The position numbers were made by a program. Positions 6,001-9,000 of a DNA stretch of 15,515 bases are shown here, one piece after another. The stretch comes from a virus. Location of the stretch: the UHGV virus genome UHGV-0099607. One strand, given 5' to 3'. The first letter of the stretch is position 1. Each line of letters begins with the position of its first letter.

Positions 6001-9000
6001 AATCGTTTTACCTGCACCGTCCACCACGATCCCCTCCCGGGTCAGCGTCACAGACTGCCCCTGATCGTCATAGACAGCCACCTCACCCGTCTGCAGCCCT
6101 TTCAGGCGGTAGCGCCGGTCCGACACCGTAACAACCACCGCATGAGAACGGTCGCTATAGGTGTCGTAGGACAACCCGATAGCATCCGCCAGCTCTGCTG
6201 GCGTGGTCACCGGTGCGTCACTTTTTCGTTGAAATAATCCCGAAAAGAACACTATTTACCTCCGCCGACAGACGACTGTGTACGGTCGAGATATCGCGCC
6301 ACCAGCCACGACCAGAACAGACACAACGCCCCGGCAACAACAAACCCCGCCGGGGGATAAATCAGCCAGGCACCATACGCCAGCAAAAGCGCCCCCAGCA
6401 CGCCCACCAGAGGCGCGAGAATCAGCATGATCATAATTACCTCAGTTAAAGCGAGCGGATCCCATAGGACTCAATGTGGTCAGACAGCGTGTCTTCTTTC
6501 TCGTACAGCATGGCTCTGCCAACCGCCATAATCAGCGCAACTGCACCATCGATTTTGTTTTCCGCCTGCTCTTTGACGGGCTTCACCACATCATCGTTAC
6601 CCGGAATGGTTTTGCCGACCACGTTGCCGATACACCAGGTCATGATGGGATTGCCATCATGATGAAAGCGCCCCGATTCAATTGCCGCTTCCAGCTCTTT
6701 CATCGGGTCGGACATGTTGGTGTAGTTCTGAATGATAGTGATGGGGTTCAGGTCTTCATCAGCAAGGTCATGTGACAACCCGGTCGCCCCGAAGGGGTCG
6801 ATGGGTGACTCACTGACCGGGCTGATTTTGTTCGCCGCTTTGGCCTCCTCGAGGATGTAGCGATAATCCACCTCCGCACCATCGGTAACGGTCAGAACGC
6901 CCATTTCCACCCATTTCTGAAAGCGTTCGGCTGTCCGTCGATCTTCATTTTTCTCGACGCTGTACACCGTGTCATACGGTACCCAGAAACGCGGGGCCAC
7001 ACTGTAGTAATGCGTTTTACCGTCAATCTCGCGGGTATAAAGTCGCGCCATGCTGTTCATATCCAGTTTACGCGCCAGGTCAAAGGCCAGAATGCACGGC
7101 TGCCCCTCGAATTGCTCAAGAGTCAGTGATTTATCCTCGCAGCTCTGCCAGCTCACCAGGTTGAAATACGCCGAACGCGCCGACACCCAGATATTGAGGT
7201 GTTTTGTTTTAAAGACGTTTGCCAGACGGGCGTTATTTTTCGCACGCTGTTGCTGACTTAACAAAAACTCACGGTAAACCGACACTCCGATATTCGGGTT
7301 GGCTTTTTCCAGCACCTGTGGGTTGGTCCAGTCGTCACCTTCGTCAACGGTATAGATGATCCCGAACAGTTCATCGTTGGGTACCGAACCGTTGAGCATC
7401 TCGATAACTTCCCGCCGTTTGTCGTAGCACGGCCCCTCAATGTTGTACCCGGCAGTAGTAATGGCCCACATCAGTGGCTGACGTCGCGCCCCCATCCCGG
7501 TAAGCATTGTGGTATAAAGCGCATCGGTGGCATGCTCGTGATATTCATCAACCACGGCACAGTGGGGTGATGAACCATCACCTGGGTTGCCGATCAGCGG
7601 TTCAAACCGCGCGCCATCCTCCGGACGGTTCATGTTTGAGGCGTTAACCTCAATCCCGAACGCTTCCGTCAGCATGGGTGTGCGTTTACACATCAGTCGT
7701 GCCGGGCGAAAGACTTCCCACGCCTGTTTCTCTGTCGTGGCACCGGAATACACTTCCGCGCCAAACTCGTTATCACAGGCAAAACAATACAGGGCAACAC
7801 CGGCAGAGATTGCTGATTTGCCGTTCTTACGGGGGATTTCGGTGTACACCTCCCGGAAGCGGCGCAACCGGGTGCCTTTATTGACCCAGCCAAACGCACA
7901 GCAGATCACAAATAGCTGCCACGGCTCCAGCGTGATGGGCATCCGTTTGAATGCCCACTCCCCCTTGGTGTGCGGCAACAGCTGAATAAATTTCGCGGCC
8001 CGTTCAGCCAGGTCCTTGTCGAAGCGGTAACGAAACGACTTACTTTTTTCCGCCATCAGGTCATCAAGATGGCGCTGGCAGGCCTGAATCACAAACTGGC
8101 AGGCAACAATCTTTCCGCGCACGACATCCCGGGCATACTGATTTGCAGCATTTACGTTGGGGTAAGATTTCCGGCTCATGATTCGATGATTTTCAGAAAC
8201 GGGTTAGTGGCTTTCTTCTTCCCCGCCAGGCCAATCAGACGCTGGCGGCTGCTGGGGTCGAGTCCGAGCATTGCCCCCGTACTGCTCATCTCGGACTCCT
8301 GTTCTTTTTTGGCAGTCAGCTCCGGATTTTTGACCATACCGCCCATTGCACCGGTGATGGTGTTGCCCTGTCTGGCAATATTTTTCACGGCACGTCGCCA
8401 GAACTCGTAGGCCACGCACCACCGCTCAAGCACCGCAAGGTCAGTCACGCACAGCAGGCCCTGACCGCAGAGTTCTTTAGTTGTCAGTTGCCACATGATC
8501 GTAGCGAGAGGGAGATCTTCTTCAGCGAACCACTCCGGTGGCTCAACACCTTTGATGGGCGTAAAAACAGGTTCATCTTTGTTCAGGGCTCGCTTGCCGG
8601 GATTTCCGGCCAGCGCCTTGCGCGCCGTTGGCTTGGGGCGACGCCCGGAACGCCCCGTCGTTCCAGTCATATGCGGCACTCCTGGTTAAATTTCATTTTT
8701 CGCGGGTATAAAAAAACGATGGGGCGGGCAGTCCGGAAGACGTCAGGTCACAGGGATTTGACCCGCCCCTCCCCTCAGACAGTTGAGAATTATTATCACT
8801 TCAGCCGTTCACGGGCCGTCTTCGCCTTATGACACGGCCAGCACAGACTCTGCAGATTACAGTCGGCATCAGTGCCGCCATGCGCTTTAGGGATGATGTG
8901 GTCAACGGCTTTCGCCTCACGCACCACACCGGCACGCAGACATAACTGACACAGGCCTTTGTCACGCTTCAGGACACGCGCGCGGATACTGTCCCACTTC

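What the first reader, a model, noticed from the sequence alone, without database searches (positions are those of the whole stretch)
8700..8795. Candidate cos / terminase recognition region with an 8-bp GC-rich inverted repeat
Between the HNH stop and the TerS start lies GGGGCGGG (8721-8728) … CCCGCCCC (8763-8770). In HK97-like phages the cos site and terminase binding elements sit in exactly this interval and the HNH protein assists cos cleavage (established knowledge). If the element is still packaged by a helper, this is where cleavage should occur.
Basis: partly seen in the sequence, partly recalled or inferred. Interest (0 to 1): 0.35.

Follow-up and report, generated by a model that had tools for sequence, protein, structure and literature searches.

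The report
Known SfV/SfI-type phage cos site
The stretch between the HNH and small-terminase genes is the already-mapped DNA-packaging cut site (cos) of the SfV/SfI family of Shigella/E. coli phages, sitting here in a badly deleted prophage; the 8-bp inverted repeat is real but looks like a side effect of a G-rich box facing a C-rich sticky end, so the finding is correct but ordinary.

Summary
All genes here read on the minus strand: HNH 9146..8796, TerS 8670..8176, TerL 8179..6446.

The interval is a cos site by direct homology. The 10-nt cohesive end mapped on SfI virion DNA, 5'-TGCCCGCCCC-3', is present unchanged at 8730..8721 on the gene strand. From the G-rich box to the TerS ATG the window differs from phage SfV at one base. 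Mapped or annotated ends of phiP27, phiE125/phi644-2 and HK97 fall in the same alignment register.

So the TerS-proximal arm is itself 8 of the 10 overhang bases. The other arm lies inside a conserved G-rich box at -54..-35.

Across 150 unique related cos regions the two arms do not co-vary: 69.5% of cells pair, against 73.5% in shuffles. The repeat is therefore not a conserved hairpin or symmetric binding site. The likely TerS site is the conserved T-tract plus CCGCGAAA box at +5..+33 (inferred).

The prophage lacks the portal-to-tail genes and the cro-to-nin region including the replication genes O and P, so packaging from this copy is unlikely.

Verdict: already known, low interest.

The parts
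8796..9146 (-). HNH endonuclease gene, a homologue of HK97 gp74. The ATG is at 9146 by homology. The longest mechanical ORF runs on to 9215.
   Evidence: Pfam HNH PF01844, E 4e-14. 93% identical to SfV orf53, and the alignment starts at MPPRTPKAC. BLASTP against HK97 gp74 gives E 3e-10.
8755..8774 (-). G-rich box GGGGAGGGGCGGG followed by TCAAATC, at -54..-35 from the cut. It contains the HNH-proximal repeat arm (8762-8769). Function inferred: a right-end cos subsite for the TerL/HNH nuclease or for termination.
   Evidence: Unique in the window. Conserved at a fixed distance in 150 unique related cos regions, with 8-12 G in 13 nt in every one. Also present in HK97, with the same 34-nt spacing from TCAAATC to the cut.
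8734..8754 (-). Variable spacer between the G-box and the cut site. It forms most of the 'loop' of the inverted repeat.
   Evidence: Lowest column conservation in the region. Mosaic breakpoints among near-identical TerS loci fall here.
8731..8733 (-). Conserved GAC triplet immediately 5' of the cohesive end (-13..-11).
   Evidence: G 90%, A 98% and C 98% over 150 unique sequences.
8721..8730 (-). cos cohesive-end sequence 5'-TGCCCGCCCC-3'. It contains the TerS-proximal repeat arm (8721-8728). Predicted nicks: between 8721|8720 on the minus (gene) strand and between 8730|8731 on the plus strand. These would give 10-nt 3' overhangs.
   Evidence: Identical to the 10-nt gap found by sequencing SfI virion DNA ends (PMC3636060). 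The SfI record ends at this base. Same register as the phiP27 'cos-site' feature and the phi644-2/phiE125 3' extension. The 3' polarity is inferred from HK97 and phiE125 and from the fact that a gap, not an overlap, was seen in SfI.
8688..8716 (-). T-tract (8716-8710) plus the ACCCGCGAAAAATGAAATTT box (+5..+33). Inferred binding site of the P27-family small terminase (cosB-like).
   Evidence: The most conserved non-coding block. CC at +16/+17 is invariant and the T-tract is 89-99% conserved in 150 unique sequences from enterobacterial, Pseudomonas, Burkholderia and Moraxella phages. By analogy, the HK97 TerS minimal site is +15..+29 (PMC11331095).
8176..8670 (-). Small terminase gene (P27 family). 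ATG at 8670, Shine-Dalgarno AGGAG at 8683-8679.
   Evidence: Pfam PF05119, E 2e-21. 98% identical to SfV orf1.
6446..8179 (-). Large terminase gene, full length (577 aa).
   Evidence: Pfam TerL ATPase and nuclease domains. 26% identical to HK97 gp2, E 5e-30. Same length as SfV orf2.

Best explanation
Window 8688-8774 (minus strand) is the cos site of an SfV/SfI-type lambdoid phage. It is a HNH-dependent cos of the HK97 kind.

Shown by homology: the cohesive end is TGCCCGCCCC at 8730..8721.

Inferred: the terminase/HNH complex nicks the gene strand after 8721 and the opposite strand after 8730. This leaves 10-nt 3' overhangs. The TerS-side DNA becomes the left (first-packaged) end and the HNH-side DNA the right end.

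The site has three parts at fixed spacing.
1. A G-rich box with TCAAATC at -54..-35.
2. GAC plus the C-rich 10-mer at -13..-1.
3. A T-tract plus CCGCGAAA box at +5..+33.

Inferred roles: the P27-family TerS binds the +5..+33 box, as HK97 TerS binds +15..+29. The G-box and cut site are read by the TerL/HNH nuclease module, which is homologous to that of HK97.

The 8-bp inverted repeat arises because the G-box variant GGGGCGGG happens to be the complement of the overhang CCCGCCCC. It is not needed as a hairpin.

In this window the site is intact, but it sits in a prophage remnant that can make neither capsids nor concatemers.
For: - Identity of the 10-mer and its flanks to SfI and SfV: 146/150 bases match SfV, and there is 1 difference from the G-box to the TerS ATG.
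- SfI ends were mapped on virion DNA (PMC3636060).
- phiP27 carries a cos-site annotation in the same register.
- The phi644-2/phiE125 3' extension CGCCCGCTTC is in the same register in Burkholderia phage vB_SR1.
- The HK97 record ends ...GACCGCCGCCAAA, with the same TCAAATC-to-cut spacing of 34 nt.
- Gene order is HNH-cos-TerS-TerL.
- TerL and HNH are homologous to HK97 gp2 and gp74.
- gp74 stimulates cos cleavage, and HK97 TerS binds +15..+29 (PMC9410871 and PMC11331095).
- Block conservation holds over 150 unique cos regions.
- The two arms do not co-vary.
Against: - No physical end mapping exists for this element. The polarity and the exact nick positions are transferred from relatives.
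- TerS is not detectably related to HK97 gp1. The TerS-site assignment therefore rests on position and conservation only.
- The SfV GenBank record starts 17 nt upstream of the SfI-mapped cut, at 8738|8737. I could not read the SfV paper to see how its ends were defined.
- The function of the G-box is untested.
Confidence: 0.88

Rival explanations
1. The inverted repeat is itself the functional element. It would act as a DNA hairpin or cruciform, or as a two-fold symmetric protein-binding site that terminase or HNH needs in order to recognise cos.
For: The 8/8 G/C repeat brackets the region just upstream of the cut. It is retained in SfV-type loci, phiP27 and ST64B. Only 0.5% of shuffles give a comparably G/C-rich repeat.
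Against: - Six of 80 loci encoding a 98-99% identical TerS carry GGGGGAGG (or, in L014, the same box shifted by one base) opposite an overhang that is unchanged in four of them. This breaks the repeat without compensation.
- The G-box variants assort independently of the overhang types.
- On 46 diverse sequences the stem pairs in 69.5% of cells, against 73.5% in shuffles. All 500 shuffles reach the observed value, and slid registers give 61-66%. The central C:G pair is kept in 8 of 46.
- HK97, the Klebsiella, Pseudomonas and Moraxella relatives lack the repeat, and the 7-nt complement in Burkholderia vB_SR1 lies upstream of its G-box. All still keep the box and the cut site.
- The DNA fold z-score is -1.3.
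Confidence: 0.06
2. The hairpin plus the following T-run (CCCGCCCC ATCG TTTTTTT on the gene strand) is an intrinsic transcription terminator or attenuator between the HNH gene and the terminase genes.
For: A stem of 8-10 G/C-rich pairs is followed after 4 nt by seven T residues. The RNA minimum free energy is -28.8 kcal/mol.
Against: - The loop is 33 nt, and the terminator scan does not call the site.
- The RNA fold is no better than shuffles (z -0.7, with 44 of 200 shuffles as good).
- There is no Rfam match.
- The T-tract is conserved in relatives that have no stem, so it belongs to the DNA site.
- From established knowledge of lambdoid phages, late transcripts must read through to the terminase and head genes.
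Confidence: 0.04
3. The sequence is a fossil cos. It is intact in sequence but is never cleaved or packaged in this host, because the prophage cannot express late genes, replicate or build heads.
For: - Portal-to-tail genes are deleted, with the junction at 6153-6158.
- The Q gene directly abuts the cI repressor gene. cro, cII, O, P and the nin genes are missing.
- The remaining genome would be about 25 kb or less, against 37 kb for SfV. That is below the size that cos phages usually package (inference).
Against: HNH, TerS, TerL and the whole cos region are undamaged. A co-resident or superinfecting SfV/SfI/SfII-type phage would supply terminase of the same specificity and could cut the site. 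This concerns activity, not identity, so it is compatible with the best explanation.
Confidence: 0.6

Closest known systems
cos of Shigella flexneri serotype-converting phages SfI, SfV, SfII and SfIV
   Same: Same 10-nt cohesive end (TGCCCGCCCC), same position between the HNH and terS genes, and near-identical flanks. There is 1 difference from SfV and 2 from SfI between the G-box and the TerS ATG. TerS is 97-98% identical.
   Different: This copy lies in a prophage with two large deletions. It was not mapped physically.
cos of Stx2e phage phiP27 (type phage of the P27 small-terminase family)
   Same: The annotated 10-nt cos-site CGCCCGCCCC is in the same register. It has the same perfect 8-bp repeat, G-box and CCGCGAAA box.
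   Different: One base differs in the overhang (C for T). The spacer and the +1..+10 region differ. DNA identity is about 74%.
cos of phage HK97 (10-nt 3' overhang, gp74 HNH-assisted cleavage, TerS site at +15..+29)
   Same: HNH-cos-terS-terL order. Homologous HNH and TerL. G-box plus TCAAATC with an identical 34-nt distance to the cut. GAC plus a C-rich 10-mer.
   Different: TerS is unrelated at sequence level. The left (TerS-side) half of cos differs. HK97 has no 8-bp inverted repeat.
cos of Burkholderia phages phiE125, phi644-2 and phi1026b
   Same: P27-family TerS (51% identical to the window's in vB_SR1). HNH gene at the right end. The 10-base 3' extension 5'-CGCCCGCTTC-3' is in the same register. 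G-box and CCGCGAAA box are present.
   Different: The overhang sequence differs at its 3' half, so there is no complement in the window's register. The best complement to the overhang in vB_SR1 is 7 nt (CGGGCGG), and it lies upstream of the G-box.
lambda cos (cosQ-cosN-cosB)
   Same: Functional analogy only. There is a cut site flanked by a downstream small-terminase site and, possibly, an upstream termination element.
   Different: From established knowledge, lambda has 12-nt 5' overhangs, a Nu1/IHF-based cosB and no HNH partner. There is no sequence similarity here.

Membership tests
HNH-associated cos site of the SfV/phiP27/HK97 kind | Lies between an HNH endonuclease gene and the small/large terminase genes, all on one strand | tested here: met
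   HNH 9146..8796, TerS 8670..8176 and TerL 8179..6446, all on the minus strand, with Pfam hits.
HNH-associated cos site of the SfV/phiP27/HK97 kind | Contains the experimentally mapped cohesive-end sequence of a family member | tested here: met
   TGCCCGCCCC at 8730..8721 equals the SfI virion-end gap (PMC3636060).
HNH-associated cos site of the SfV/phiP27/HK97 kind | Cut site in the same alignment register as other mapped or annotated ends (phiP27, phiE125/phi644-2, HK97) | tested here: met
HNH-associated cos site of the SfV/phiP27/HK97 kind | TerL and HNH homologous to HK97 gp2 and gp74 | tested here: met
   TerL E 5e-30 with 26% identity. HNH E 3e-10.
HNH-associated cos site of the SfV/phiP27/HK97 kind | Physical cleavage here giving 10-nt 3' overhangs | not testable with these tools
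   Needs virion DNA or in vitro cleavage. The polarity is transferred from HK97 and phi644-2.
HK97 cos in the strict sense (gp1-type TerS recognition) | Small terminase homologous to HK97 gp1, and a left-half site resembling CTAACCCGATTTTTT at +15..+29 | tested here: not met
   No BLASTP similarity between the two TerS proteins. gp1 has no PF05119 hit. The left half differs, sharing only an ACCCG motif plus an A/T tract.
Conserved DNA/RNA hairpin | Base pairs maintained by compensatory change across relatives | tested here: not met
   69.5% of cells pair, against 73.5% in shuffles. All 500 shuffles reach the observed value. 2 pairs have any double change, which is fewer than in shuffles.
Intrinsic (rho-independent) terminator | G/C-rich stem with a short loop, followed directly by a U-run; stability above background | tested here: not met
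   The loop is 33 nt and the scan does not call it. z-score -0.7.

The most novel reading that the evidence does not exclude
The G-rich box with TCAAATC at -54..-35 may be a distinct cos subsite that has not been characterised. It would act as a docking or termination signal for the TerL/HNH nuclease module, loosely analogous to lambda cosQ.

It is kept at a fixed 34-nt distance from the cut in enterobacterial, Klebsiella, Pseudomonas, Burkholderia and Moraxella phages. It is also present in HK97, whose TerS shows no detectable sequence similarity to the P27-family TerS. On this reading the cos halves are modular: the right half travels with HNH/TerL and the left half with TerS.

I could not check whether the older HK97 or SfV papers already describe this box.
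Probability: 0.4. Interest if true: 0.4.

Novelty: already known. Interest (0 to 1): 0.14.

Why it matters
The result mainly serves annotation. It fixes the packaging cut site and the true starts of the HNH and TerS genes in this prophage remnant. It also shows that the conspicuous inverted repeat should not be read as a hairpin signal.

A modest wider point comes from the comparison of 150 cos regions. It gives a fixed-register, three-block model for cos sites used with P27-family small terminases. It also suggests which block goes with which protein. This could guide cos prediction in prophages and mutagenesis in the HK97 in vitro system.

Tried and rejected
- **RNA and DNA folding of the repeat.** The z-scores are weak (-0.7 and -1.3).
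- **Terminator and promoter scan.** Nothing was called at the site.
- **Rfam search at a permissive threshold.** No match in the cos region.
- **Covariation test of the 8-bp stem.** Negative.
- **Transferring the HK97 TerS-DNA structure by protein homology.** Rejected. The window's TerS has no BLASTP similarity to gp1, gp1 has no Pfam hit, and the window's TerS has no relative in the PDB. Only positional analogy is used.
- **Reading the SfV genome paper, the phiP27 paper and Kala et al. 2014.** None is held.
- **Full-text search for the overhang strings.** It returned only unrelated papers.
- **Exact search for the portal/baseplate deletion junction in GTDB species representatives.** No match, so the source strain is not identified.
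- **G-quadruplex idea for the G-box.** Not pursued. Only three G-runs are present on the strand.

Full report
**Observation.** On the plus strand the window reads GGGGCGGG at 8721-8728 and CCCGCCCC at 8762-8769. This is a perfect 8-bp inverted repeat with a 33-nt spacer. In 5000 dinucleotide-preserving shuffles of the 116-nt stretch 8680-8795, 7% contain some perfect 8-bp repeat with a 3-60 nt spacer. Only 0.5% contain one with at least 7 G/C pairs. It is the only all-G/C repeat of this kind in the window. The repeat is real and mildly unusual.

**Context.** All relevant genes are on the minus strand.
- The HNH endonuclease is PF01844. Its longest ORF is 9215..8796.
- By alignment with SfV orf53, phiP27 L34 and ST64B Sb56, the true ATG is at 9146.
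- The small terminase belongs to the P27 family (PF05119).
- Its mechanical ORF starts at a GTG at 8679. The ATG at 8670, preceded by AGGAG at 8683-8679, matches the SfV annotation.
- The large terminase runs 8179..6446.

The non-coding gap is therefore 8671-8795.

**What it is.** The region belongs to the SfV/SfI/SfII/SfIV/ST64B/phiP27 group of temperate phages. It occurs in about 1200 of 5426 complete E. coli genomes.

For SfI, direct sequencing of virion DNA ends against the prophage showed a 10-nt gap, 5'-TGCCCGCCCC-3'. This was taken as the cohesive end (PMC3636060). The SfIV paper states that SfI, SfII, SfIV and SfV share an identical cos (PMC3851460).

That 10-mer occurs once in the window, at 8730..8721 on the gene strand. 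The SfI record ends exactly at ...GGACTGCCCGCCCC and begins GTCGTTTTTTT. Over 150 nt around the site the window matches SfV at 146 positions. Between the G-box and the TerS ATG it differs at one base.

The phiP27 record annotates a 10-nt 'cos-site', CGCCCGCCCC, in the same register. The phiE125/phi644-2 10-base 3' extension 5'-CGCCCGCTTC-3' (PMC2920897) falls in the same columns in Burkholderia phage vB_SR1. The HK97 record ends ...GACCGCCGCCAAA in the same register.

I therefore number the site with +1 = 8720. Then +n = 8721-n and -n = 8720+n.

**Anatomy.** I collected 240 IMG/VR loci using three TerS queries and added named phages. I anchored them without gaps, which gave 150 unique cos regions. 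They show three conserved blocks at fixed spacing.
1. A G-rich box followed by TCAAA(T/A)C at -54..-35 (window 8774..8755). Every sequence has 8-12 G in 13 nt.
2. GAC at -13..-11 (90-98% conserved), followed by a mostly C-rich 10-mer.
3. A T-tract at +5..+11 and an ACCCGCGAAA(A/T)T.AAA.TT box up to +33 (window 8716..8688). CC at +16/+17 is invariant beyond the GCGAAA anchor.

The spacer at -34..-14 is the least conserved part.

**Is the inverted repeat functional?** In the window the HNH-proximal arm is the last 8 bases of the G-box. The TerS-proximal arm is bases 3-10 of the overhang.

Among loci encoding a 98-99% identical TerS, six of 80 carry GGGGGAGG (or, in L014, the same box shifted by one base) in place of GGGGCGGG. 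Four of the six have an unchanged overhang, and none shows a compensating change. G-box variants and overhang types assort independently. For example, GGGGCGGG occurs with CGCCGCCTCA and with CGCACCCTAA.

On an alignment of 46 diverse sequences (A1) the 8 pairs are formed in 69.5% of cells. With shuffled partners the figure is 73.5%, and all 500 shuffles reach the observed value. Slid registers give 61-66%. The central C:G pair survives in 8 of 46 sequences. HK97, the Klebsiella, Pseudomonas and Moraxella relatives have no such repeat, and the 7-nt complement in Burkholderia vB_SR1 lies upstream of its G-box.

The pairing is what one expects when a G-run faces a C-run. The perfect repeat in the SfV/phiP27/ST64B subgroup is best read as a coincidence of two independently constrained motifs.

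The terminator reading also fails.
- The loop is 33 nt, and the scan does not call the site.
- The RNA fold z-score is -0.7.
- Rfam finds nothing there.
- The T-run is conserved in relatives that have no stem.

**Mechanism (mostly inferred).**
- In HK97 the ends carry 10-nt 3' overhangs.
- TerS bound at cos arrests the motor there.
- The HNH protein gp74 stimulates cos cleavage (PMC9410871).
- TerS binds a minimal site at +15..+29 (PMC11331095).

The window's TerL and HNH are homologues of gp2 and gp74 (E 5e-30 and 3e-10). Its TerS has no detectable similarity to gp1, and gp1 has no PF05119 hit.

The cos comparison mirrors this split. HK97 shares the right half with the window: the G-box, TCAAATC, the same 34-nt distance to the cut, and GAC plus a C-rich 10-mer. 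It does not share the left half.

I infer two things. The G-box and cut site are read by the TerL/HNH module. The +5..+33 box is the P27-family TerS site.

The 3' polarity is supported by two observations. phi644-2/phiE125 have 3' extensions. SfI run-off sequencing gave a gap rather than an overlap. Run-off reads stop short of the overhang when the ends are 3'-protruding.

The predicted nicks are on the gene strand between 8721|8720 and on the plus strand between 8730|8731.

**State of this copy.** Window 1-6158 matches SfV 14279-20439, from the baseplate genes (14279) to gtrA (20439). TerL is followed almost at once by baseplate genes.

The junction at 6153-6158 fuses the 5' end of the portal gene to the 3' part of the baseplate V gene. 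About 12 kb of head and tail genes are missing. No complete E. coli genome and no GTDB representative has this junction.

Upstream, a lambda-like Q gene abuts a cI-type repressor gene directly. The cro, cII, O, P and nin genes are absent, and so are rexAB.

The cos, HNH, TerS and TerL are intact. However, the element cannot replicate or build heads, and at 25 kb or less it is short for a 37-kb capsid (inference). A related helper could cut the site, but productive packaging is unlikely.

**Verdict.** The repeat is a by-product. The site is already described for SfI and SfV. The fixed three-block architecture and the apparent modular link (right half with HNH/TerL, left half with TerS) are the only points that might be new, and I could not check the older literature for them.

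Noticed in passing
window 6153-6158 (context 5815-6446): A deletion junction fuses the 5' end of the portal gene to the 3' part of the baseplate-V gene. The 145-aa ORF 6252..5815 spans it. About 12 kb of head and tail genes are missing relative to SfV. The junction is absent from 5426 complete E. coli genomes and from GTDB representatives.
   Followed up: partly
window 12373-12817 and 13221-13384: This is a second set of deletions in a lambda-like early region. The Q gene (11842-12627, minus strand) abuts a cI-type repressor gene (12526-13227, plus strand; HTH plus S24 peptidase). cro, cII, O, P, ren and the nin genes are absent, and rexA/rexB are also missing. N, sieB, ral and cIII remain.
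   Followed up: partly
window 9156-9182 (minus strand): A terminator-like hairpin, AAGCCTCGCGTCGCGGGGCTT followed by TTTATT, lies just upstream of the HNH Shine-Dalgarno sequence and ATG (9146). It sits inside the longest mechanical HNH ORF, which therefore overshoots the true start.
   Followed up: partly
window 50-2582 (plus strand): The gtrA, gtrB and type-specific glucosyltransferase genes are about 97% identical to the SfV gtr cluster (gtrV). The remnant therefore still carries O-antigen serotype-conversion genes.
   Followed up: partly
IMG/VR loci L014, L017, L020, L046, L075, L080, upstream of TerS: These loci encode a 98-99% identical TerS, and their sequence is nearly invariant from TTCCGGAC through the overhang to TerS (one base differs in the overhang of L017 and one in L046). 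On the HNH side of that point the sequence switches to a different version. This mosaic breakpoint lies about 15-20 nt before the cut, so cos appears to be a recombination boundary.
   Followed up: partly
L086 (Vibrio phage H20), 335-701: The HNH-like gene and a P27-family TerS gene are separated by only 6 nt. This relative has no room for a cos site in that interval, so its packaging site must lie elsewhere.
   Followed up: no
L087, L176-L191 (Pseudomonas phage D14E group): At the position of the C-rich overhang these loci carry a G-rich 10-mer (GACGGGGGGA) and AAC instead of GAC. They keep the G-box and the CCGCGAAA box. Whether the cut site or the overhang strand differs is unexplained.
   Followed up: no
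L002/L003 (SfV record ends) compared with window 8737/8738: The SfV GenBank record is linearised 17 nt upstream of the SfI-mapped cut (...GACGTCT | TCCGGACTGCCCGCCCC). Its coordinate 1 is therefore not the physical left end implied by the SfI data.
   Followed up: partly
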